Source: a virus
Taxonomy: Duplodnaviria > Heunggongvirae > Uroviricota > Caudoviricetes
IMG/VR virus record: IMGVR_UViG_2529292885_000013
Direction: 5' to 3' (one strand)
Length of the DNA: 6,083 bases
A program made the position numbers and the translations under genes. Shown one piece after another: positions 1-6,083 of the stretch (positions are counted from its first letter, which is position 1; every line of letters starts with the position of its first letter). Below the pieces are notes generated by a model. The model searched no databases. It had not been told where the DNA came from and saw only the letters and a program-made list of their open reading frames with translations.

Positions 1-538
1 ATTTCTTCCTGTGTTGCGGCTTCCCGGACTGGTAACGCAGCACCTGCTGGCTGAGGAAAGGCCTTACCATCATTTTTCGTTACCGGCGCGGCTTTCGGAT
101 CTGCTGGTAAATTACCCCCCGACATGCAGTAACGAAATTTACCGTTCTGATTAACGCGTGCCAGCCGCCCCGTTGCGGTTACCACCGCCAGCGTGGAAGC
201 AACCTTGCGAGTACTGACGCCGAACTTACCCGCCAGTTCCTCACACGTTTTAGCACCATCCTGACCGATAAACTCAACCATCATGTCTGCGGTAACTTTT
301 GGAGCGACCTCTTCGGTTACCACATCCGGCGCTTCAGGTTGTAGTGCCTGCCCTTCGGTTACCCCGGCTTCACCTTCGACAGCCAGAAACCAGGTGTGAC
401 CCGTTTTATCAACAACGCCATTTTTTTGAGTTCCCACAGTTCGTTAAGAACTTCTTCACGGCTGATATCAAGCCGCGCCGCCAGTTCAACAGAATTGGCT
501 TTTCCCATCGCTTTCAGTGCATGCAATACAGTTTCCAT
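1..538 (-). pseudogene. Frameshifted, 5'-complete but 3'-truncated-by-window gene for a prophage protein with tandem winged-helix-like domains (N-terminal 59-codon frame 538..359; continuation in the -1 frame from ~427 to position 1 and beyond)
   Basis: Minus-strand ATG at 538 with GAGGT 9 nt upstream, 25 nt after the DnaC-like stop. It translates [39 protein letters not shown], then stops at 359 in that frame. Re-reading one base at the A7 run (T7 on plus, 421-427) gives ...[20 protein letters not shown]..., which completes a winged-helix fold and stays open for >170 codons to the window edge. A second similar domain follows (MMVEFIGQDGAKTCEELAGKFGVSTRKVASTLAVVTATGRLARVNQNGKFRYCM). Absent from the ORF track because neither frame is a complete long ORF. 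Confidence 0.5.
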
Positions 539-563
539 CGAAAATTTACCTCGTCAAAAATTC

Positions 564-1304
564 TCACATACCCTGACGTCCAACGTTTGACCGCCAGCTC
601 TCCCAGTTAAAATTCACCCAACGACCACCATTCATGGTCATACGGTCCATCACCCGATCTCCGAGGAGTGTGCTCATCGCTGCGTGATTCAGGTTCGTCA
701 GCATTCCGACACTACGCATCGAAGCCGTTCTGCGGTCGACTATCTGGTTCAGCGTGACCTGCTCGTTGCGCGTATCCCGCTGCATGCCAATTTCATCAAG
801 GACCAGAAGGTCAACTCCACAAAGCTCCTGTAAAAATTTTTCCCCGGACTGGCCGTTGTCGTAGCCGTCATGCAACACGCTCATGACATCGGACACGGTG
901 ACGATAATCACGCTTCTCCCCTTCGCCATCAGCCGATTGCCAATCGCTGCTGCCAGGTGATTTTTACCGGTACCAGGTTTACCGCTGAACACGAAGTTTG
1001 TACATCCGGTCATCAATTCATCGGCAATGGATTTCGCCTGGCTCAGAGCATGGCGCTGACCGTCGTTCTGCACCCGGTAGTTCCCGAATGAGCACTTCCT
1101 GTGAAGCGGCTGGATGCCCGCACGGTTCAGGATTTTTTCAACCCGCACCTGATGATTCAGGCGGTTAATCTCCTCGCTGCGTTTTCGTCCTTCAGCAAGT
1201 TGCCATTCCCGCCACTCCTCCACCGTCCGGTACGGTGGAACCGCCCCCTGTGGTGCAAGTCTGCGAATACGTTCAAGAACCCCAACTGCCGCAATGTTTT
1301 TCAT
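564..1304 (-). CDS. DnaC-like replicative helicase loader (lambda P-equivalent, IstB/DnaC AAA+ ATPase)
   Basis: 246-aa ORF with Walker A (FSGKPGTGKNHLAAAIG) and Walker B (DLLVLDEIG) motifs. Start ATG lies 6 nt after the stop of the upstream O-like gene with a G-rich SD, an operon arrangement typical of lambdoid replication modules. Similar in size and position to Rac YdaV (from memory). Confidence 0.9.
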   Translation of the reverse strand: MKNIAAVGVLERIRRLAPQGAVPPYRTVEEWREWQLAEGRKRSEEINRLNHQVRVEKILNRAGIQPLHRKCSFGNYRVQNDGQRHALSQAKSIADELMTGCTNFVFSGKPGTGKNHLAAAIGNRLMAKGRSVIIVTVSDVMSVLHDGYDNGQSGEKFLQELCGVDLLVLDEIGMQRDTRNEQVTLNQIVDRRTASMRSVGMLTNLNHAAMSTLLGDRVMDRMTMNGGRWVNFNWESWRSNVGRQGM

Positions 1305-1310
1305 GACACG

Positions 1311-2288
1311 TCACCCCCTGAATCCCGGCGGTATTTCAGTGTCCGGTTCAGAAATGTGATTCACGCAACGCTGCGCGGGCGAACGCCCCAGGCGGATAAC
1401 CAGTTCATCCCATTTTTCCCGGAGTTTTGCCGGACTCATGATGTTTTTTACCCAGAACGAATCCCGCTGGAGACGCCCAAACATTTCACAAATTTGTCTG
1501 TGAGTTCTGCCATCCAGCATCCGCATTGTCCGCACGTCATTGGCCCATGCAGTCCAGTTGGGTTCTTTCGGTCTCGTGATCTCGCCATCATCGCTGGCCG
1601 CCTGCTCGTAAAGACTCACGATTCGTCCCCAGATCCACTGTGCGCACACCAAATCTTCCTGACTTCCCCACTGGCGTTTTTTCGCACTGAACACAACCGC
1701 GTCAGGGTGTCGGGTTAAAAAATTCTGTTCAGCCGTCTGCGGGTCCGGTTGCGAAGCGTCCGGACAAGAAGATCTTTTATCTGACGGATCAGGTTTTAAT
1801 ACTGACGGATCGGGGTCAATCATCGCCCCCCTAATCGGCAGTTTGTTATCAACAGTTGATCCATCAAAATTTGACGGGTCAACCGTTGAGGGGGCAATAT
1901 TTGACGGGTCAACTGTTAACGGGTCATTTTTTGCCGGGCTAATTTTTCTTTTCGGTTTATATGACTCACGCGCCGCCGCAGCAGCTGCTTCGAGTTTTTC
2001 CACATTAAGCCGATAGATATTGCTTACATTACGCCCACCGACCTTACGCTCTTCCTTCGTCAGCCAGCCCTCTTTCGCCAGTTCTGCAATAGCCGATTTC
2101 ACTGTGGATTCACTTCTTGCACCGATCTGACGCCGGATAGTTTCAATGGCAGGCCATGACACGCCCTCGTCATTGCTGTAGTCTGCAAGACGGGCCATAA
2201 CCGCCACCCTGGATAAGATCATGCCGGTGAAGGCGCACCCTTCCCAGACAAGACCATGAAGCTTGCTGCTCATAAAACCCCCGAACAC
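1311..2288 (-). CDS. Phage replication initiator (lambda O-like replisome organiser) with N-terminal HTH domain; start either GTG at 2288 or, more likely, ATG at 2273
   Basis: 325-aa ORF. N-terminal winged-HTH-like segment (LSRVAVMARLADYSNDEGVSWPAIETIRRQIGARSESTVKSAIAELAKEGWLTKEE), a central low-complexity linker (AAAAAARE...PLTVDPSNIAPSTVDPSNFDGSTVDN) encoded by iteron DNA, and a C-terminal domain. Sits immediately upstream of the DnaC-like gene. The ATG at 2273 is preceded by GGGGG; the GTG at 2288 has no SD. Confidence 0.85.
   Translation of the reverse strand: MFGGFMSSKLHGLVWEGCAFTGMILSRVAVMARLADYSNDEGVSWPAIETIRRQIGARSESTVKSAIAELAKEGWLTKEERKVGGRNVSNIYRLNVEKLEAAAAAARESYKPKRKISPAKNDPLTVDPSNIAPSTVDPSNFDGSTVDNKLPIRGAMIDPDPSVLKPDPSDKRSSCPDASQPDPQTAEQNFLTRHPDAVVFSAKKRQWGSQEDLVCAQWIWGRIVSLYEQAASDDGEITRPKEPNWTAWANDVRTMRMLDGRTHRQICEMFGRLQRDSFWVKNIMSPAKLREKWDELVIRLGRSPAQRCVNHISEPDTEIPPGFRG
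1781..1965. repeat. Putative prophage origin of replication: iteron cluster inside the O-like gene plus adjacent AT-rich stretch
   Basis: TTGACGGGTCAAC(C/T)GTT occurs at 1871-1887 and 1901-1917 (30-bp period). Related palindromic units ATCAACAGTTGAT (1848-1860), TCAACCGTTGA (1880-1890) and AACGGGTCA (1918-1926). CTGACGGATC is repeated at 1781-1790 and 1802-1811. AT-rich segment ~1925-1965 (cattttttgccgggctaatttttcttttcggtttatatgac). Lambda ori likewise lies in the middle of gene O. Confidence 0.6.
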
Positions 2289-2295
2289 CGTGCTT

Positions 2296-2721
2296 TTAGT
2301 GCATCACCACAGCATTCCCTGCCGGGCCGCCGCGATTCATCTGGTCATACAAAACAACCGCTGACGCAACAAAATCATCGACATCCTTCACCAGCCGATC
2401 CCTCCGTTCGACGATCTCACGGTAATATTCAGAACTGTGGCTGCGCATACGGGCCACCAGCAAAGGCGGCATCGCCTTTTCGATCGCCGGTAACAGAGCC
2501 TGCATTTTTTCAACAGCATCAGGGGTGTCTTTATCCAGCCAACGGAAAATTTTCTGGGTATTACGGGCCAGGGCTTCCGGATGGCTGTCGTCATACAGTT
2601 CCGGGAACGTCATTCCCAGCTCGAAATACGCTTTGGTAATTTTCGCAGCCGGTACTTTTTCGCCGTCCGGATGCGCCCAGACATTCATCGCCATGCGGAT
2701 GTGTTCATGCTTGATTTTCAT
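2296..2721 (-). CDS. ydaT: YdaT-like protein (occupies the cII position of the Rac-type immunity region)
   Basis: 141-aa ORF immediately downstream of, and overlapping by 4 bp (ATGA) with, the Cro-like gene; 7 nt upstream of the O-like gene. Size and position match Rac YdaT (~140 aa). Family assignment is from memory. Confidence 0.65.
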   Translation of the reverse strand: MKIKHEHIRMAMNVWAHPDGEKVPAAKITKAYFELGMTFPELYDDSHPEALARNTQKIFRWLDKDTPDAVEKMQALLPAIEKAMPPLLVARMRSHSSEYYREIVERRDRLVKDVDDFVASAVVLYDQMNRGGPAGNAVVMH

Positions 2722-3020
2722 GAATCAACTCCATCAGATAAGCATGCACTACAATCACCTTCAGCATGAACTACATGTGTTTGCCCCAAACGAATGCCGC
2801 TCGCATACTCAGGCCAAATAAGCTCCCAATCATGGGGTCGTAGCTCCGCCCTACTTACTTGGCCTTCCGTCGCAGATTCGATCATAAGGGCGCGGGTTGG
2901 AGATATAGCTGTTCGTCCAGACGCCATTTGCGATAAGTAAGATGGCGATACACCAAGTCTGGCCGCGAATTTCTTAGCATCACCAACCCTTAATGATTTA
3001 ATAAACTCTTTTAATGTCAT
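2718..3020 (-). CDS. ydaS: Cro-like HTH transcriptional regulator (YdaS family)
   Basis: 100-aa ORF with an HTH segment (AKKFAARLGVSPSYLSQMASGRTAISPTRALMIESAT) and an ELRPHDWELIWPE motif that I recall from YdaS/Cro-like prophage regulators. SD GAGGAAGG precedes the ATG. Divergent from the CI-like repressor gene across an operator-rich intergenic region. Confidence 0.75.
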   Translation of the reverse strand: MTLKEFIKSLRVGDAKKFAARLGVSPSYLSQMASGRTAISPTRALMIESATEGQVSRAELRPHDWELIWPEYASGIRLGQTHVVHAEGDCSACLSDGVDS

Positions 3021-3117
3021 ACCTTCCTCGGTTTAGTGTTTTTTTGCGAGTTTAGTGTTTAATAAACCATTAAGTCAAGTATTTGCTTGTTTAGTGATTA
3101 CTAAAGATAATTACCAC
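3021..3117. promoter_or_regulatory. Divergent immunity promoter/operator region (pR-like on minus strand, pRM-like on plus strand) with repeated TTTAGT/ACTAAA half-sites
   Basis: Plus strand: -35 TTGCTT (3083-3088), 17-bp spacer, -10 GATAAT (3106-3111), ATG at 3118. Minus strand: -35 TTGACT (3078..3073), 18-bp spacer, -10 TAAACT (3054..3049). Inverted repeat TTTAGT-GATT-ACTAAA at 3090-3105 fills the plus-promoter spacer; further TTTAGT copies at 3032-3037 and 3051-3056; GTTTA-A-TAAAC palindrome at 3056-3066. Confidence 0.6.
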
Positions 3118-3489
3118 ATGCAAAAAAAAGAAATTCGCCGTTTACGTCTCAAGGAGTGGTTTAAAGATAAAACTCTGCCACCCAAAGAGAAGAGCTACCT
3201 ATCTCAACTAATGAGTGGGAGAGCCTCGTTTGGAGAAAAGGCTGCCAGAAGAATAGAGCAAACATACGGGATGCCGGAAGGGTATCTGGATGCGGAATAC
3301 GCAGAACAACCGGGGGGTTCTCCACCACATGCAGGGTTAACGTCTAATCAACTGGAATTATTGCAGATTTTTTCAGCCTTCCCTGAGGATGAGCAACGCC
3401 AGATAATCAGCGAGTTAAAGCAGAAAAAAGAATCAATGGAAGATCTCATAGCGAGATGGATTGCGGCGCAAAAATGCCGCCGCGCCTGA
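3118..3489 (+). CDS. paaR: CI-like HTH (XRE-family) repressor; candidate PaaR-type regulator of the downstream ParE toxin-antitoxin pair and candidate prophage repressor
   Basis: 123 aa from the ATG at 3118 (MQKKEIRRLRLKEWF...). HTH segment SYLSQLMSGRASFGEKAARRIEQTYGMPEGYLD. Located exactly at the cI position, divergent from the cro-like gene. No SD upstream and a -10 hexamer 6 nt before the ATG suggest a leaderless mRNA. The in-frame upstream ATG at 3055 (144 aa) lies inside the operator region and lacks an SD. Confidence 0.7.
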   Translation: MQKKEIRRLRLKEWFKDKTLPPKEKSYLSQLMSGRASFGEKAARRIEQTYGMPEGYLDAEYAEQPGGSPPHAGLTSNQLELLQIFSAFPEDEQRQIISELKQKKESMEDLIARWIAAQKCRRA

Positions 3490-3509
3490 GTTATAAAACC
3501 GGAGGAAAC

Positions 3510-3701
3510 ATGAATAGAGCCCTTTCACCAATGGTTTCTGAATTTGAAACCATTGAACAAGAAAACAGTTACAACGAATGGCTGCGTGCGAAAGTAGCAA
3601 CGAGCCTTGCAGATCCGCGCCCAGCAATTCCCCATGACGAAGTTGAGCGCAGAATGGCAGAACGCTTTGCTAAGATGCGCAAGGAACGGAGCAAGCAGTA
3701 A
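3510..3701 (+). CDS. paaA: Small antitoxin of a ParE-family toxin-antitoxin pair (PaaA-like, ParE-associated antitoxin)
   Basis: 63-aa ORF from the ATG at 3510 with a GGAGG SD 5 nt upstream (MNRALSPMVSEFETIEQENSYNEWLRAKVATSLADPRPAIPHDEVERRMAERFAKMRKERSKQ). Its stop TAA (3699-3701) is 1 nt before the toxin ATG (3703), indicating translational coupling. Small, charged and helix-prone. Matches my recollection of the 63-aa PaaA2 antitoxin of E. coli O157:H7; paralogue number (1 vs 2) cannot be resolved here. Confidence 0.7.
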   Translation: MNRALSPMVSEFETIEQENSYNEWLRAKVATSLADPRPAIPHDEVERRMAERFAKMRKERSKQ

Positions 3702-3702
3702 A

Positions 3703-3981
3703 ATGTTACCCGTGTTATGGCTTGAAAGCGCAGATACCGACCTAGATGATATAACTAGTTATATTGCTCGTTTCGACATAGATGCGGCTGAACGCTTATG
3801 GCAGCGATTAAGGGGTTGTGTGCTGCCGTTATCCGAACATCCGTATTTATACCCACCAAGCGACAGAGTACCTGGCTTGCGTGAGATTGTAGCCCACCCT
3901 AACTATATAATTCTATACCGCGTAACAACATCAAGCGTTGAAGTAGTAAACGTGATCCACGCAAGACGCCAGTTTCCCTAA
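3703..3981 (+). CDS. parE: ParE/RelE-superfamily toxin (ParE-like)
   Basis: 92-aa ORF from the ATG at 3703 (MLPVLWLESADTDLDDITSYIARFDIDAAERLWQRLRGCVLPLSEHPYLYPPSDRVPGLREIVAHPNYIILYRVTTSSVEVVNVIHARRQFP). Shows the ParE hallmarks: N-terminal W...A..DL..I..YI, central P.LG...R...LRE, C-terminal Y.I.YRV......V.V..V.HARR. Tightly coupled to the upstream antitoxin gene. Confidence 0.85.
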   Translation: MLPVLWLESADTDLDDITSYIARFDIDAAERLWQRLRGCVLPLSEHPYLYPPSDRVPGLREIVAHPNYIILYRVTTSSVEVVNVIHARRQFP

Positions 3982-4006
3982 CTTTCACTACCAATAGAAA
4001 CATAAC

Positions 4007-4046
4007 AACCGCAACGACTTTATCAAAAGCGTTGTGTTTGTTATGT
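4007..4046 (+). terminator. Weak candidate intrinsic terminator downstream of the toxin gene
   Basis: Imperfect hairpin: AACCGCAACG (4007-4016), 13-nt loop, CGTTGTGTTTG (4030-4040; 5 perfect bp plus G-U and mismatch-interrupted pairs), followed by a T-rich tail (tttgttatgt). Confidence 0.25.
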
Positions 4047-4050
4047 CCCG

Positions 4051-4096
4051 CGGTTTAGTTTTTACTTGACTTAAGTTTAATGTTTATTAAACTAAA
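4051..4096 (+). promoter_or_regulatory. pL-like outward promoter with operator half-sites (oL-like), related in sequence to the pR-like element
   Basis: -35 TTGACT (4066-4071), 16-bp spacer, -10 TAAACT (4088-4093). The stretch ACTTGACTTAA...GTTTATTAAAC...CTAAA is shared with the minus-strand reading of the oR region (3050-3082). TTTAGT at 4054-4059 and ACTAAA at 4091-4096 match the oR half-sites. Confidence 0.4.
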
Positions 4097-4411
4097 AATA
4101 CCAACCCACCCCGCCCCACAGAACGCAGGGAAATACTTCGAGTTACCCGGCAGTGGTCAGGGGTTAAGTAGCCAGCCCGAGGCGTATGAACATGACGGCA
4201 GGGTTCAACTTTAATAACTATGCAGCAGTTTTTTGTTCCGCTACCCCGGCGTTAAGGGGAAACAGAGGGTTTCTCAGTGGGCGAAGTCAAACATCAGAAT
4301 GGAAGGCATCCCGGGATCGGCAAAGAAGCAGCAATGGCGCTTTATATTGACATCAGCGCCATTGCAGGACAGGTAAGAGTTATCAGAGCGGTAACTAAGC
4401 GGTATGCGCCT

Positions 4412-4612
4412 TTACTTCAGAAAGTCTCTGGTGAGTGCACCGAAGATATTGTCAACGATTTCGTCATCGAACTGCGAGGACTCATCTTCAGTTACAAGGT
4501 GACCACAATTTTTGCAGATGGCTCCCGCGAAACTGTCAGAGCCCTGCGGCTTAAAGGATGTGTCAAAGACTTCGCCACCACATTCTGGGCAAGAAAACTT
4601 GATTGTATTCAT
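4412..4612 (-). CDS. Small zinc-ribbon protein (CxxC...CxxC), hypothetical
   Basis: 66 aa from the ATG at 4612 (the ORF track starts 2 codons earlier at a TTG). SD AGGA 8 nt upstream. Two Cys pairs (CPEC and CKNC) about 20 residues apart. Codon usage is typical E. coli, whereas the overlapping plus-strand ORF 4277..4633 is rich in rare AGA/AGG/CGA codons. Confidence 0.55.
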   Translation of the reverse strand: MNTIKFSCPECGGEVFDTSFKPQGSDSFAGAICKNCGHLVTEDESSQFDDEIVDNIFGALTRDFLK

Positions 4613-4705
4613 AACCAATTTCCTCTCGAGTAACAGACCCCTCAGAGGATACCACCTCGCCTGACGTGGTTAAAAAGCAGGCAACGCTAACCACAAGGAG
4701 CCGAC

Positions 4706-4924
4706 ATGCAGAAACGAGACCCCGTCATCATCGCGCCAGACTATACCGATGATGAACTTTATGAGTGGATGCACCAGAAAATTAAGGCGGTGCAGGACCT
4801 GAAATGGGCCAATGAAGCCAGGGCTAAGCAGGCTGAAAATCTGTCCGCTCTGGAGCAGGATATCACCAATCTGGAAAAAGCAGCGGCATTAAGCATTGCC
4901 AGAATGATTACATACCCACGTTAA
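4706..4924 (+). CDS. Hypothetical 72-aa prophage protein with coiled-coil-like C-terminal half (occupies the position of a Rac early-left small gene such as kilR; homology unverified)
   Basis: ATG with AAGGAG SD 6-7 nt upstream. Sequence MQKRDPVIIAPDYTDDELYEWMHQKIKAVQDLKWANEARAKQAENLSALEQDITNLEKAAALSIARMITYPR. Followed 22 nt later by the next plus-strand gene. Confidence 0.6.
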   Translation: MQKRDPVIIAPDYTDDELYEWMHQKIKAVQDLKWANEARAKQAENLSALEQDITNLEKAAALSIARMITYPR

Positions 4925-4946
4925 TAGCTAACCAACGAGGCTAATA

Positions 4947-5354
4947 ATGGAATTTAAAGATTTACCAACGCCATTACAGGAAATGGCATCGAATATAGTT
5001 CGTTCACAACTGGCTACTCTTGACCTTAGTACCGCAGAAAAAGAAACCATCGATAATATGGTTCGTAATGTGCGCAATGCTTTTTCTGGGCTATATGGTT
5101 CTGATAATCAAAAGCAGGAAAGCGATGTTAATAAACGGGTAATTTCTGTTTGCGTGAATGGCCATGTTCTTTCATCAATCAAAACAGAAACGGCGACAGT
5201 CTTCGATTGCCTTTGCATTGTACAGAGCCTTGTTGATGCCCTGTTTCGTTCAGTGAATTTAGAAAATGATGCAAATCTGCGAGGGCGCATAATAGCACAT
5301 CCATATGCACATACTTTAGGCTCTGTGGATATCAAAGATCCCACAAATCTTTAA
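4947..5354 (+). CDS. Hypothetical 135-aa protein, AT-rich (moron-like) gene
   Basis: ATG at 4947 with GAGG SD 6 nt upstream. Long ORF in a locally AT-rich block (roughly 38-40% GC by eye versus over 50% in flanks). No family recognised. Confidence 0.6.
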   Translation: MEFKDLPTPLQEMASNIVRSQLATLDLSTAEKETIDNMVRNVRNAFSGLYGSDNQKQESDVNKRVISVCVNGHVLSSIKTETATVFDCLCIVQSLVDALFRSVNLENDANLRGRIIAHPYAHTLGSVDIKDPTNL

Positions 5355-5565
5355 TGAAATAGTTAACGCGAATTGTACTTGCTCTTTCGGTTGCTTTCAG
5401 AATACGCGTTGAAACTGCTGGCGGTAATTTGGTATTCCATTTATTAAAATCATGCCCGGGAAAGTACTCTTCGAAAATACTTTTAACTGCAGACTCGCCT
5501 ATTGAAATGCTGCTTACCATGCGATTTTGATAAAGGCATTTAGCAATAAGAGTTGATTTTAACAT
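5332..5565 (-). CDS. Hypothetical 77-aa protein, convergent with and overlapping the 3' end of the 135-aa gene by 23 bp
   Basis: ATG at 5565 with strong SD AGGAGG (rev-comp of 5570-5575) 4 nt upstream. AT-rich codons consistent with the neighbouring gene. No family recognised. Confidence 0.5.
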   Translation of the reverse strand: MLKSTLIAKCLYQNRMVSSISIGESAVKSIFEEYFPGHDFNKWNTKLPPAVSTRILKATERASTIRVNYFIKDLWDL

Positions 5566-6083
5566 TCACCCTCCTGAGGGTTGGTAATTAAGGAGTTCTC
5601 CACGGGTGAAGTGGAGTGCGTGCGCCGGACACGGGTGAACATCCGGCACTGACAGTTTACTGAAAGGATATTTCTCTGAAAAGTCAGAGCATAACGCGAA
5701 AGCGCACGGCGAGGTTGCTGGTTCATAGATAGCCTGTCGTTAAATTTTCGTCGACCGTGCGCTTCCGGTTGTGGCACTCCGCGAAATGGCGCAGCGGTAA
5801 GTATGGCGGGGTTATTCCTTCCCCGTTGAGGACACCGGGTTGTCAGGTTGACCATACGCTTAAGTGACAACCCCGCTGCAACGCCCTCTGTTATCAATTT
5901 TCTGGTGACGTTTGGCGGCATCTGTTTGCCCATGAACTGATGTCCGCCCTTTTTAAAGTGAATTTTGTGATGCAGTGAATGCGGCTAAGCGCACGCGGAA
6001 CAGTTAAAGCTAAAAACAGTGTTATGGGTGGATTCTCTGTATCCGGCGTTAATTGTTAACTGGTTAACGTCACCTGGAGGCAC

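What the first reader, a model, noticed from the sequence alone, without database searches (positions are those of the whole stretch)
5566..6083. About 500 bp of GC-richer, highly structured sequence with no convincing gene
Between the 77-aa gene start and an SD at the window edge there are several structures. CACGGGTGAA is directly repeated at 5601-5610 and 5630-5639. A REP-like palindrome GCCGGA...TCCGGC lies at 5623-5646. An 8-bp inverted repeat GCGCACGG/CCGTGCGC lies at 5702-5709 and 5755-5762. A 9-bp-stem hairpin GGGTTGTCA/TGACAACCC lies at 5837-5873. A terminator-like hairpin GGCGGCAT...ATGtCCGCC followed by CTTTTT lies at 5914-5957. The only long ORF (minus, 124 codons) is Arg/Pro-rich and full of rare codons. 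The region may encode an sRNA or cis-regulatory RNA, or be a recombination scar or cargo boundary.
Basis: seen in the sequence. Interest (0 to 1): 0.45.

Follow-up and report, generated by a model that had tools for sequence, protein, structure and literature searches.

The report
Variant DicF small-RNA locus in prophage
This gene-less, highly folded stretch is the known untranslated part of the prophage dicBF operon that is cut up to make the DicF regulatory RNA; this copy has its ftsZ-pairing half replaced, and it follows a conserved folded leader whose role is still unknown.

Summary
The region is not a mystery. Window 5579-6083 is the untranslated ydfC-to-dicB segment of a Qin/Sp9-type prophage dicBF operon. 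The "terminator-like hairpin" is the sRNA DicF (5899-5949 plus U-tract; Rfam RF00039, 43.5 bits, below the gathering score of 48). The 8-bp inverted repeat is the core of a long stem at 5690-5773, which is where published RNase III processing should create the 190-nt DicF precursor. The last ~145 nt are a cut-off STnc100-like leader of dicB, and the "SD" at the window edge is a hairpin loop. The left edge (5578/5579) is the junction of a 634-bp low-GC two-gene insertion. The 124-codon ORF is not a gene.

Two points go beyond routine annotation. First, this DicF copy (290 of 5,426 E. coli genomes, never annotated) keeps the 5' seed but has a replaced 3' half with no ftsZ complementarity. Second, 5764-5885 is a covarying structured module with no Rfam match. 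In at least 99 distinct phage and prophage versions it is always followed by a variable linker and a terminator. Its function is unknown.

The parts
4945..5578 (.). Context: a 634-bp low-GC (38-40%) insertion between ydfC and the conserved spacer. It carries a 135-aa gene (4947-5354, +) and a 77-aa gene (5332-5565, -). Its right junction forms the left edge of the finding.
   Evidence: It is absent from K-12 Qin and phage Tritos in alignment A1. GC profile. The two proteins match PHROG families of unknown function, phrog_1363 and phrog_10348.
5595..5687 (+). Three leader hairpins. A is 5598-5603/5611-5616, with outer pairs 5595-5596/5618-5619. B is 5624-5629/5642-5647. C is 5649-5665/5671-5687. 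The loops of A and B share the motif CACGGGTG.
   Evidence: The fold of 5590-5695 gives -34.4 kcal/mol, z = -2.6. The stems are invariant in 33 unique homologues while the loops vary, so covariation cannot be measured. Other loci lack this part, with homology breakpoints near 5600, 5620 and 5690.
5690..5773 (+). A long imperfect stem (basal strands 5690-5712 and 5751-5773). It is the inferred RNase III substrate; a cut at about 5762-5767 would give the 5' end of the 190-nt DicF precursor.
   Evidence: Fold -34.8 kcal/mol, z = -3.0. 17 of 21 basal pairs never vary. The published 190-nt species is RNase III-dependent (PMC10448788 section 6). 190 minus 53 puts its 5' end 137 nt upstream of 5899, at about 5762. 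The position is inferred from fragment length and is not mapped in this copy.
5764..5885 (+). A conserved structured module. P1 is 5768-5775/5875-5882, P2 is 5779-5783/5790-5794, P3 is 5807-5811/5821-5825 and P4 is 5837-5845/5865-5873. A tentative pseudoknot pairs 5801-5806 with 5852-5857.
   Evidence: Covariance model R1 scores 145.8 bits here. On 68 unique sequences, 96.2% of cells pair and 12 pairs change on both sides against 3.4 +/- 1.2 in shuffles (0 of 500) and 0-5 in slid controls. Rfam has no match. The module occurs without the DicF seed in the P1/P7 ban leader, phage cdtI, Stx2c phages, Salmonella F1055, Citrobacter, Serratia, Erwinia and others.
5883..5913 (+). A single-stranded linker that carries the RNase E processing site (5898/5899) and the DicF 5' seed UUUCUGGUGACGUUU.
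   Evidence: It is 100% identical to K-12 and Tritos. The 5' end of the 53-nt DicF is RNase E-dependent (PMC5069750). The DicF start is placed by alignment to K-12 dicF b1574.
5899..5954 (+). The DicF sRNA in its variant form: body 5899-5949, terminator hairpin 5914-5948, U-tract 5950-5954.
   Evidence: Rfam RF00039 gives 43.5 bits, E = 3e-7, gathering score 48; K-12 DicF scores 76.7 bits. The hairpin segment 5914-5949 is only 61-64% identical to K-12 and Tritos while the flanks are 94-100%. The same sequence occurs in 290 of 5,426 complete genomes, including Sakai prophage Sp9, and is never annotated.
5938..6083 (+). The 5' two-thirds of the STnc100-like structured leader of dicB, cut off by the window end. 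The 5' arm of its 17-bp basal stem is 5957-5973, and its partner lies at about 6091-6107, beyond the window. This stem is the inferred RNase III site that gives the 72-nt DicF 3' end, at about 5968.
   Evidence: In the identical locus L001, Rfam RF02076 gives 32.5 bits, E = 5e-5, gathering score 47; K-12 gives 34.4 bits. The fold is -58.5 kcal/mol, z = -4.0, 0 of 200 shuffles. The 72-nt species is reported in PMC5069750. The same leader precedes kil, kilR and terB in other phages.
6073..6083 (+). The 5' arm and loop of a CCUGG-AGGCA-CCAGG hairpin.
   Evidence: It is a paired element in the STnc100 model alignment and in the fold. The dicB ATG lies at window-equivalent position 6124.
5559..5933 (-). 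A spurious 124-codon ORF.
   Evidence: Variable sites by codon position are 29/35/34. In 18 of 41 unique homologues the longest open stretch is 88 codons or fewer, and 8 of 41 have in-frame stops. It has no Pfam or PHROG match, and PGAP does not annotate it.

Best explanation
Window 5579-6083 is the long untranslated segment between ydfC and dicB of a Qin/Sp9-type prophage dicBF operon, read on the + strand. It works as an sRNA production cassette inside a polycistronic early-left transcript. In step 1, transcription from the repressor-controlled early-left promoter runs through ydfC, and here also through a 634-bp insertion, into the leader. In step 2, the long stem at 5690-5773 is cut by RNase III at about 5762-5767, which releases a ~190-nt RNA made of the structured module (5764-5885) and DicF. 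In step 3, RNase E cuts the AU-rich single strand at 5898/5899 to give mature DicF. Its 3' end is set either by the intrinsic terminator (hairpin 5914-5948 plus U-tract) or, in read-through RNA, by a second RNase III cut at about 5968 in the basal stem of the STnc100-like dicB leader. In step 4, DicF acts with Hfq by base pairing. This copy has the K-12 5' seed, so it should keep the 5'-seed targets such as xylR and pykA. Its 3' half has been replaced, so it probably does not repress ftsZ in the way K-12 DicF does. What is shown here: the identity, synteny, folds and conservation, the covariation of the module, and the loss of ftsZ complementarity. What is taken from the K-12 literature: the RNases involved and the fragment sizes. 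What is inferred: the exact cut positions in this copy, the target repertoire of the variant, and any role for the module. My preferred reading of the module is a 5' domain that frames processing and stabilises the precursor.
For: Rfam matches DicF at 5900-5949. Synteny is ydfC, spacer, dicF, dicB, ydfD-like gene and exonuclease in the identical O157 locus, in phage Tritos (which annotates DicF at the aligned position) and in K-12 Qin. Outside the hairpin, identity to K-12 is 94-100%, and the seed and linker are 100% identical. The K-12 biogenesis has been shown by Northern blots and primer extension in rnc and rne mutants (PMC10448788), and the 53-nt and 72-nt 3' ends are reported in PMC5069750 and in a review (PMC9438474). 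The fragment lengths place both RNase III cuts inside strongly predicted stems. The STnc100 model shows the same basal stem. The K-12 DicF 3' part pairs with the ftsZ RBS at -27.9 kcal/mol, matched by 2% of shuffles, whereas the variant's 3' part gives -18.9, which equals the shuffle mean. The paper shows genetically that ftsZ pairing uses the 3' region and xylR pairing uses the 5' end. All 99 unique family members have the order module, linker, terminator.
Against: The DicF hit is below Rfam's gathering score. No transcript or processing data were available for this particular copy. The RNase III positions are deduced from gel sizes measured in K-12. The stems of the leader hairpins and of the long stem are too conserved to show covariation. 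The duplex calculation ignores intramolecular structure and Hfq, so the loss of ftsZ control is a prediction. In this prophage the operon is interrupted by an insertion with a convergent gene, which could reduce transcription reaching dicF. I could not read Melson & Kendall 2019, which may already describe this copy.
Confidence: 0.9

Rival explanations
1. The conserved module at 5764-5885 is not only precursor scaffolding. It is a cis-acting processive antiterminator RNA, analogous in function to HK022 put, that lets RNA polymerase read through the DicF-type terminator just downstream and through later terminators, so that dicB and the other early-left genes are expressed. The sRNA would be the product of polymerases that were not modified.
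For: In all 99 unique versions the module lies 10-56 nt upstream of an intrinsic terminator, with more genes in the same orientation beyond it. In P1 it starts about 25 nt after the C1-controlled Pban promoters, ahead of a terminator, tRNA genes and ban. In cdtI it lies about 280 nt after a near-consensus PL-like promoter, and no N-like gene follows. Non-DicF relatives have a boxA-like UGCUCU(C/U)UU motif 5-6 nt upstream. The module is more conserved than the sRNA body it precedes. Read-through to dicB does occur in K-12: a 1,608-nt transcript is seen, and dicB accounts for the toxicity of the induced operon.
Against: The module's covariance model finds nothing in the HK022 early region that holds putL and putR. 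Put RNA is about 70 nt with two stem-loops, whereas this module is about 115 nt with four helices. Each locus has only one copy. In the window the boxA-like motif is degenerate (GUGCGCUUCC) and is part of the RNase III stem. No experiment bears on this idea, and a leaky terminator would explain read-through equally well.
Confidence: 0.15
2. The module plus terminator is a ligand- or factor-sensing attenuator of the riboswitch type, which sets how much transcription continues into dicB.
For: The layout resembles a riboswitch: a conserved multi-helix domain with a possible pseudoknot, then a variable linker, then a terminator. GGCGG inside the module could in principle compete for the CCGCC arm of the terminator (read directly from the sequence).
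Against: The alternative GGCGG/CCGCC pairing is absent in P1 and P7, whose terminator is GCCCAUCUUCGGGUGGGC. The linker varies from about 10 to 56 nt, which fits poorly with a fixed expression platform. The pseudoknot is weakly supported. Rfam has no match.
Confidence: 0.05
3. The region encodes a protein: either the 124-codon minus-strand ORF or one of the short + strand ORFs (for example the 36 codons at 5757-5867).
For: An ATG-initiated 124-codon open frame exists. Some phage records annotate hypothetical proteins across this region.
Against: Substitutions show no codon periodicity (29/35/34). Frames are broken by 1-nt indels in 18 of 41 homologues, and 8 of 41 have in-frame stops. Its start codon lies in the variant-specific hairpin and is absent from K-12-type copies. 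It has no Pfam or PHROG match, while every neighbouring real gene has one. Module length varies by numbers of bases that are not multiples of 3 (121-127 nt), which excludes the + strand ORF. PGAP does not call it.
Confidence: 0.02
4. The structures are non-functional leftovers, such as REP-like palindromes or recombination scars, in a decaying prophage.
For: The region is mosaic. Segments 5768-5890 and 5971-6083 occur separately elsewhere, other loci have breakpoints near 5600, 5620 and 5690, and some copies carry deletions between the CGCGAAA repeats.
Against: The region is as conserved as, or more conserved than, the flanking coding sequence. Helices P1, P3 and P4 covary. The K-12 homologue yields defined, functional RNAs. 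The copy number per genome (median 2) is not REP-like. The module is also present in functional phages such as P1, P7 and cdtI.
Confidence: 0.05

Closest known systems
DicF sRNA of the E. coli K-12 Qin prophage dicBF operon (Rfam RF00039; Faubladier 1990; Balasubramanian 2016; Ragunathan 2023)
   Same: The position between ydfC and dicB is the same. The linker and the 5' 20 nt are identical. It has an intrinsic terminator. The upstream leader is 94-99% identical, including the stem where RNase III should cut, and the downstream dicB leader is the same.
   Different: The 36-nt hairpin segment is only about 62% identical and is 2 nt shorter, so the Rfam score is 43.5 bits against 76.7 and falls below the gathering score. 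The loop lacks the ACUCCG anti-RBS segment, and predicted ftsZ pairing is lost. A 634-bp two-gene insertion separates ydfC from the leader.
STnc100 (Rfam RF02076) and PasD prophage RNAs
   Same: The dicF-dicB spacer aligns to the full STnc100 model, including the long-range basal stem and the CCNGG-AGGCA-CCNGG hairpin. Like STnc100 copies elsewhere, it precedes small prophage genes (bioRxiv 10.64898/2026.05.13.724894).
   Different: The score (32.5-34.4 bits) is below the gathering score of 47. Only the first ~145 nt lie inside the window. Here it serves as the 5' leader of dicB and overlaps the 3' processing site of DicF, and there is no evidence that it is a free-standing sRNA.
HK022 put RNAs (cis-acting processive antiterminators)
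   Same: The resemblance is in position only. Both are structured RNAs placed after an early promoter and before terminators, in phages that have no obvious N gene at that position.
   Different: There is no sequence or structure match: model R1 finds nothing in HK022. Put is about 70 nt with two stem-loops, whereas this module is about 115 nt with four helices. Each locus has one copy, not an L/R pair. No functional data exist.
3'-UTR-derived and intra-operonic sRNAs whose processing is guided by upstream stem-loops (MicL, CpxQ, SroC; review PMC9438474)
   Same: The sRNA is the 3' end of a longer mRNA. It is released by RNase E at a single-stranded site flanked by stable structures, and it shares the mRNA's terminator.
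   Different: There is an additional RNase III step, a 190-nt intermediate and a 5' structured domain that is conserved across phages even where the seed differs.
'dicF-like region' annotated in the phage P1 ban-operon leader (GenBank AF234173)
   Same: It contains the same module (R1 gives 89.9 bits; P7 gives 84 bits), followed by a linker and an intrinsic terminator.
   Different: It lacks the DicF seed and has a different terminator hairpin. It sits directly after the promoter, so no RNase III stem is needed, and tRNA genes and ban lie downstream.

Membership tests
DicF (RF00039) | Score at or above Rfam's gathering threshold (48 bits) | tested here: not met
   The score is 43.5 bits with E = 3e-7 over the full model 1-52. 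K-12 scores 76.7 bits. The shortfall comes from the divergent hairpin.
DicF (RF00039) | 5' single-stranded seed UUUCUGGUGACGUUUGGCGG | tested here: met
   Window 5899-5918 is identical to K-12.
DicF (RF00039) | Location in the untranslated segment between ydfC and dicB of a lambdoid prophage early-left operon | tested here: met
   Annotation of the identical O157 locus, of Tritos and of K-12, and alignment A1.
DicF (RF00039) | Rho-independent terminator hairpin plus U-tract forming the 3' end | tested here: met
   Hairpin 5914-5948 folds at -17.3 kcal/mol and is followed by C and UUUUU.
DicF (RF00039) | 3' region complementary to the ftsZ ribosome-binding site (the division-inhibition function) | tested here: not met
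   The variant's 3' part gives -18.9 kcal/mol, equal to the shuffle mean, and does not lie over the RBS. K-12 gives -27.9 kcal/mol over positions -29 to 0. This is a prediction only.
DicF (RF00039) | Generated by RNase E (5' end) and RNase III (precursor 5' end and alternative 3' end) | not testable with these tools
   The cleavage contexts are conserved at 97-100% identity and fold as predicted. The enzymology is known only for K-12.
STnc100 (RF02076) | Score at or above the gathering threshold (47 bits) | tested here: not met
   The score is 32.5 bits with E = 5e-5 on the uncut identical locus. Nothing was reported for the cut-off window itself at E up to 1.
STnc100 (RF02076) | Long-range basal stem enclosing internal hairpins, including CCNGG-AGGCA-CCNGG | tested here: met
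   Model alignment and an independent fold at -58.5 kcal/mol, z = -4.0.
HK022-type put antiterminator RNA | Sequence and structure similarity to putL/putR (about 70 nt, two stem-loops) | tested here: not met
   Model R1 has no hit in HK022 23.7-34 kb at E up to 1. The architectures differ.
HK022-type put antiterminator RNA | Promotes terminator read-through in cis, dependent on the RNA polymerase beta' zinc-binding domain | not testable with these tools
   Only positional evidence is available.
REP / BIME extragenic palindromes | Hundreds of dispersed chromosomal copies sharing the REP consensus | tested here: not met
   The 505-nt region matches a median of 2 and at most 10 places per genome, and every context inspected was prophage, phage or plasmid-borne.
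Protein-coding gene (124-codon minus-strand ORF) | Reading frame kept open across homologues, with third-position bias in substitutions | tested here: not met
   Substitutions fall 29/35/34 by codon position. 18 of 41 homologues have an open stretch of 88 codons or fewer, and 8 of 41 have in-frame stops.
Conserved structured RNA (the module at 5764-5885) | Base pairs maintained by compensatory changes beyond the controls | tested here: met
   12 pairs change on both sides against 3.4 +/- 1.2 in shuffles (0 of 500) and 0-5 in slid controls, located in P1, P3 and P4. P2 shows none. The pseudoknot is inconclusive: one compensatory event, two wobble events and two or three disruptive events. Caveat: 29 positions were fixed by the retrieval pattern.

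The most novel reading that the evidence does not exclude
The 122-nt module just upstream of DicF (5764-5885) is an undescribed, autonomous structured-RNA family of temperate enterobacterial phages. It forms a constant 5' domain onto which different single-stranded 'seed' linkers and a terminator are attached, and DicF is only one of at least 10 seed classes. It may have an activity of its own, most interestingly as a put-like cis-acting antiterminator that decides between producing the sRNA by termination and expressing the early-left genes by read-through. A related point is that EHEC would carry functionally diverged DicF paralogues, with the Sp9 copy having lost ftsZ control while keeping the metabolic 5'-seed targets.
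Probability: 0.25. Interest if true: 0.6.

Novelty: already known. Interest (0 to 1): 0.3.

Why it matters
The main result is a clean explanation. For genome annotation, this DicF copy falls below Rfam's gathering score and is unannotated in all 290 complete genomes that carry it, including O157:H7 Sakai (Sp9). Counts of dicF copies based on annotation or Rfam may therefore miss it. For DicF biology, the copy keeps the 5' seed but has lost the predicted ftsZ-pairing half. If that is confirmed, the multiple EHEC dicF copies are not redundant. For RNA biology, the leader module is conserved and covarying, has no Rfam match, and is shared with the P1/P7 ban leader and many other phages, always ahead of a terminator. 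That makes it a defined, testable candidate for a new phage RNA element.

Tried and rejected
1. Rfam at permissive thresholds on the window, the uncut O157 locus and K-12 found only DicF and STnc100. Nothing matched 5579-5898. The mir-4703, speF, snoRNA and tsr32 hits have E values of 0.1-4 and are chance.
2. ARAGORN found no tRNA or tmRNA.
3. The module's covariance model found no hit in HK022, so homology to put is rejected. It also found none in Rac-SA53 or Shigella phage 75/02 Stx.
4. The pseudoknot looked good in the first alignment, but my search pattern had fixed those columns. A second scan that left them free found uncompensated changes, so I downgraded it to tentative.
5. Covariation in hairpins A to C and in the long stem cannot be measured because the stems are nearly invariant. 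A stems-versus-other variability test gave p = 0.0006 only after I excluded the apical helix post hoc, and p = 0.38 without that exclusion, so I do not rely on it.
It also found no minus-strand promoter for the 77-aa gene.
7. Exact RNase III site data were not available. The colour mark in the supplementary figure of PMC10448788 is lost in the text copy, no supplement is held for PMC6212723, and PMC5371410 only cites the 1990 paper.
8. Melson & Kendall 2019 (PMC6628830) and the P1 genome paper (PMC523184) are not held. The EDL933 record NC_002655.2 is not in the collection. I therefore could not determine whether the Sp9 copy is one of the 'four dicF copies' of EHEC.
9. Pas sRNAs were considered as a possible identity for the module family and rejected, because they lie in late regions near Q, RusA, TerB and the lysis genes.
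10. An N-type antiterminator after the module in cdtI was rejected: the next protein is acidic and has no Arg-rich motif or Pfam match.
11. Three technical slips were corrected: a script looked for a file that did not exist, a query ended inside the variant hairpin, and a pattern had the wrong gap length.
Full report
**What is in the sequence.** CACGGGTGAA occurs at 5601-5610 and 5630-5639, against 0.02 copies expected and with 0 of 200 shuffles reaching two. GCCGGA/TCCGGC lies at 5624-5629/5642-5647, one base to the right of the stated coordinates. GCGCACGG/CCGTGCGC lies at 5702-5709/5755-5762 and extends to 13 nt. GGGTTGTCA/TGACAACCC lies at 5837-5845/5865-5873. A hairpin at 5914-5948 is followed by C and TTTTT. 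As RNA, 5579-5960 folds better than every one of 100 dinucleotide shuffles on either strand (z = -2.8 and -3.6). The region is "GC-richer" (53%) only by contrast with the 38-40% GC stretch just upstream.

**Identification.** The window is the immunity and early-left region of a lambdoid prophage of E. coli. Positions 5300-6083 are 100% identical to many O157:H7 and O121 chromosomes. An Rfam scan gives one meaningful match, DicF (RF00039), at 5900-5949 on the + strand (43.5 bits, E = 3e-7, gathering score 48).

In the identical O157 locus the flanking genes are ydfC, two hypothetical genes, then dicB, a DUF1482 gene, an exonuclease, xis and int. Phage Tritos annotates "DicF antisense sRNA" at the aligned position. 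K-12 Qin has ydfC, a 340-bp stretch with no annotated gene, dicF, a 174-bp gap and then dicB.

A three-way alignment shows the following:
- Window 4706-4924 is ydfC.
- 4945-5578 is a 634-bp insertion absent from K-12 and Tritos. It carries a 135-aa gene on the + strand and a 77-aa gene on the - strand, which match phrog_1363 and phrog_10348, both of unknown function.
- 5579-6083 is the conserved ydfC-dicF-dicB untranslated segment.

The left edge of the finding is therefore an insertion junction, and the rest is what the literature calls the "long untranslated region containing dicF" (PMC5069750).

**How it works, from the K-12 literature mapped onto the window.** DicF is processed from the polycistronic transcript that starts at the DicA-repressed promoter dicBp. 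RNase III is required for a 190-nt species and RNase E for the 5' end of the 53-nt form, and no internal promoter was found (PMC10448788). The 3' end is either the Rho-independent terminator or, in read-through RNA, an RNase III cut that gives a 72-nt form (PMC5069750; review PMC9438474).

By alignment, the DicF 5' end is window 5899. A 190-nt species then begins at about 5762-5767. The 72-nt end falls at about 5968. That is inside the 5' arm (5957-5973) of a 17-bp stem whose partner lies just beyond the window, at about 6091-6107. The whole dicF-dicB spacer of the identical locus folds at -58.5 kcal/mol (z = -4.0, 0 of 200 shuffles).

That spacer aligns end to end with Rfam STnc100, with the same basal stem, though below the gathering score (32.5 bits, E = 5e-5, gathering score 47; K-12 34.4 bits). 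GGAGG at 6076-6080 is the loop of a CCUGG/CCAGG hairpin in that structure. The dicB ATG is 44 nt further on and has its own GAGG. The cut positions are inferences from published fragment sizes, and I could not obtain nucleotide-resolution data.

**The ORF.** The 124-codon minus-strand ORF is not a gene:
- Across 41 unique homologues, variable sites fall 29/35/34 on codon positions 1/2/3.
- In 18 of 41 the longest stop-free stretch is 88 codons or fewer, mainly because of 1-nt indels.
- 8 of 41 have in-frame stops.
- Its ATG lies in the variant-specific hairpin.
- It matches nothing in Pfam or PHROGs, whereas the neighbouring small genes do.
- PGAP does not call it.

**This DicF copy is a variant.** Identity to K-12 and Tritos is 94-100% in every segment, and 100% for the linker and seed at 5886-5913. 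The exception is the hairpin at 5914-5949, which is 61-64% identical and 2 nt shorter. It still forms a good terminator hairpin (-17.3 kcal/mol against -15.9 for K-12). This explains the low Rfam score (43.5 bits against 76.7).

Genetic work showed that the 3' region of DicF pairs with the ftsZ RBS and the 5' end pairs with xylR and pykA (PMC5069750). In RNAduplex calculations, K-12 nt 21-53 pair with ftsZ positions -29 to 0 at -27.9 kcal/mol, which only 2% of shuffles match. The variant's 3' part gives -18.9 kcal/mol, which equals the shuffle mean, and it does not lie over the RBS. I therefore predict that this copy retains the 5'-seed targets and has lost K-12-style ftsZ repression.

The exact variant occurs once per genome in 290 of 5,426 complete E. 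coli genomes, mostly O157:H7 and O55:H7. In Sakai it lies in prophage Sp9. No record annotates it. EHEC is known to carry several dicF copies (PMC7873438; PMC5331693). I could not determine whether this copy is among those counted.

**The leader is mosaic, and one part is a conserved structured module.** A distant blastn search shows that window 5768-5890 occurs on its own in many phages: cdtI, Ayreon, Stx2c phages, 2H10 and Salmonella F1055. In P1 it is annotated as a "dicF-like region" and lies about 25-40 nt after the C1-controlled Pban promoters. Window 5971-6083 occurs on its own upstream of terB/tciA in P1, P7 and D6, and upstream of kil or kilR in Shigella phage 75/02 Stx and in Rac.

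A two-block pattern retrieved at least 120 viral contigs and 16 genomic loci, including E. albertii, E. ruysiae, Shigella, Citrobacter, Serratia symbiotica, Trabulsiella, Erwinia tracheiphila and Izhakiella. On 68 unique sequences I tested a four-helix fold:
- P1: 5768-5775/5875-5882
- P2: 5779-5783/5790-5794
- P3: 5807-5811/5821-5825

In this fold 96.2% of cells pair. Twelve pairs change on both sides, against 3.4 +/- 1.2 in shuffles (0 of 500) and 0-5 in slid controls. The covariation lies in P1, P3 and P4, and P2 shows none.

A loop-junction pseudoknot (5801-5806 with 5852-5857) has one true compensatory event (P7 U-A against P1 C-G) and two wobble intermediates. A second scan that left those columns free found five sequences with uncompensated changes, so the pseudoknot is tentative. 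One caveat applies to the whole test: 29 positions of the module were fixed by the retrieval pattern.

A covariance model of the module scores 145.8 bits in the window and 84-152 bits in all relatives, including P7 and F1055, which the pattern did not select. It finds nothing in HK022, Rac or the Shigella phage. Rfam has no match for the module.

**Architecture of the family.** In all 99 unique versions with full flanks, a hairpin plus T-run follows the module. The linker is 10-56 nt long, with 28 distinct sequences in at least 10 unrelated classes, and DicF is one of them. The module is more conserved than the sRNA body. The 5' arm of P1 (GUUGUGG) is also the end of the long RNase III stem, so the two structures are alternatives until the RNase III cut removes the upstream strand.

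**What the module does is not known.** I prefer the conservative reading. It is the structured 5' domain of the DicF-family precursor, which frames the RNase III and RNase E cuts and stabilises the 190-nt species that accumulates in stationary phase. This is analogous to the stem-loop-guided processing of other 3'-UTR-derived sRNAs.

A more novel reading is that it acts in cis on transcription, like put. Several observations leave that possible:
- It always precedes an intrinsic terminator inside an operon.
- It sits right after Pban in P1.
- In cdtI it lies about 280 nt after a near-consensus PL-like promoter, and no N-like gene follows.
- Non-DicF relatives have a boxA-like motif upstream.

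Against it, there is no homology to put and there are no functional data.

**Upstream hairpins A to C (5595-5687).** They are conserved in Qin/Sp9-type loci, with invariant stems and variable loops. They are missing from many other loci, and covariation cannot be assessed. They are not REP elements, because the region occurs at a median of 2 places per genome. Their role is unknown.

**Verdict.** The object is a known system, the DicF/dicBF untranslated region. The specific copy is a divergent DicF variant that falls below the Rfam threshold and is unannotated. The leader module is a real, covarying element with no Rfam match, and its function deserves an experiment.

Noticed in passing
window 4945-5578: A 634-bp low-GC insertion with convergent, overlapping genes of 135 aa (+) and 77 aa (-), matching phrog_1363 and phrog_10348 (both of unknown function). 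The 77-aa gene has a good SD, but its ATG is only 13 nt from the insertion junction. Its promoter would therefore have to lie antisense within the DicF leader, and the sigma-70 scan found none.
   Followed up: partly
window 3055-3981: A cI-like HTH regulator gene (3055-3489) is followed by an antitoxin with a PaaA2 domain (3456-3701) and a ParE-family toxin (3607-3981). This looks like the PaaR2-PaaA2-ParE2-type three-gene toxin-antitoxin module described in O157:H7 prophages; that name is from my own knowledge.
   Followed up: partly
window 1-6083: No complete E. coli genome in the collection holds the whole window. The best full-length match is 95.2% identical. Many O157:H7 genomes match about 90% of it at 99.4-99.8% in two pieces, apparently lacking the 634-bp insertion, at one prophage. 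Positions 5300-6083 are 100% identical to a different prophage (Sp9 type). The window is a recombinant mosaic of known prophage segments.
   Followed up: partly
window 5699-5707, 5756-5764 and 5987-5995: AAGCGCACG occurs twice, once upstream and once downstream of DicF, and both copies are complementary to CGTGCGCTT at 5756-5764. In read-through RNA the 3' strand of the RNase III stem could therefore pair across DicF instead. This was not tested.
   Followed up: no
L005 2486-2497, L142, L143 and L140, just upstream of the module; window 5757-5766: Non-DicF relatives carry a motif that resembles boxA (my recollection of the consensus), UGCUCU(C/U)UU or UGCUCUUUCC, 5-6 nt before the P1 arm of the module. 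In the window the equivalent sequence is GUGCGCUUCC, which is part of the long stem.
   Followed up: partly
L132 (Serratia symbiotica), L140 (Trabulsiella), L142 (Erwinia), L143 (Izhakiella), L147 (Salmonella phage F1055), downstream of the module: In these relatives the terminator hairpin is long and encloses an AGGAG-type SD and an ATG (for example GGAGGAGCGAAGATAATGTTCTGCCG). A downstream ORF would therefore start inside the terminator, which suggests coupled control of transcription and translation.
   Followed up: no
L015 1634-1755, L054 5223-5344, L134 1456-1577: These copies lack the long stem and the 5' arm of P1. The junction lies at the CGCGAAA direct repeat (window 5695 and 5780), which points to repeat-mediated deletions of about 85 bp.
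   Followed up: no
L005 39-227 and L006 40-228 (minus strand): The Stx2c-phage and cdtI loci carry a C4 antisense RNA (RF01695, 68-80 bits) next to isrK (RF01394, 60 bits), close to the antirepressor gene. This is a P1 immI-like module in lambdoid phages.
   Followed up: no
L148 3001-3227, L149 3001-3170, L007 2501-2616: The STnc100-like structured leader precedes small host-directed genes of different families: dicB, kil or kilR, and terB/tciA. It appears to be a portable 5' leader.
   Followed up: partly
window 4277-4633 (+) and 4412-4618 (-): A 118-codon + ORF fully overlaps a 68-aa minus-strand ORF that has weak zinc-ribbon matches, all below the Pfam cut-offs. At most one of the two is likely to be real.
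   Followed up: no
L103 70-193 and the sequence downstream of it: One viral contig combines a different linker with a terminator stem almost identical to the window's variant (GGCGGCAUCAG...CUGAUGUCCGCC). This suggests that linkers and hairpins are exchanged by recombination at the shared UUUGGCGG junction.
   Followed up: no
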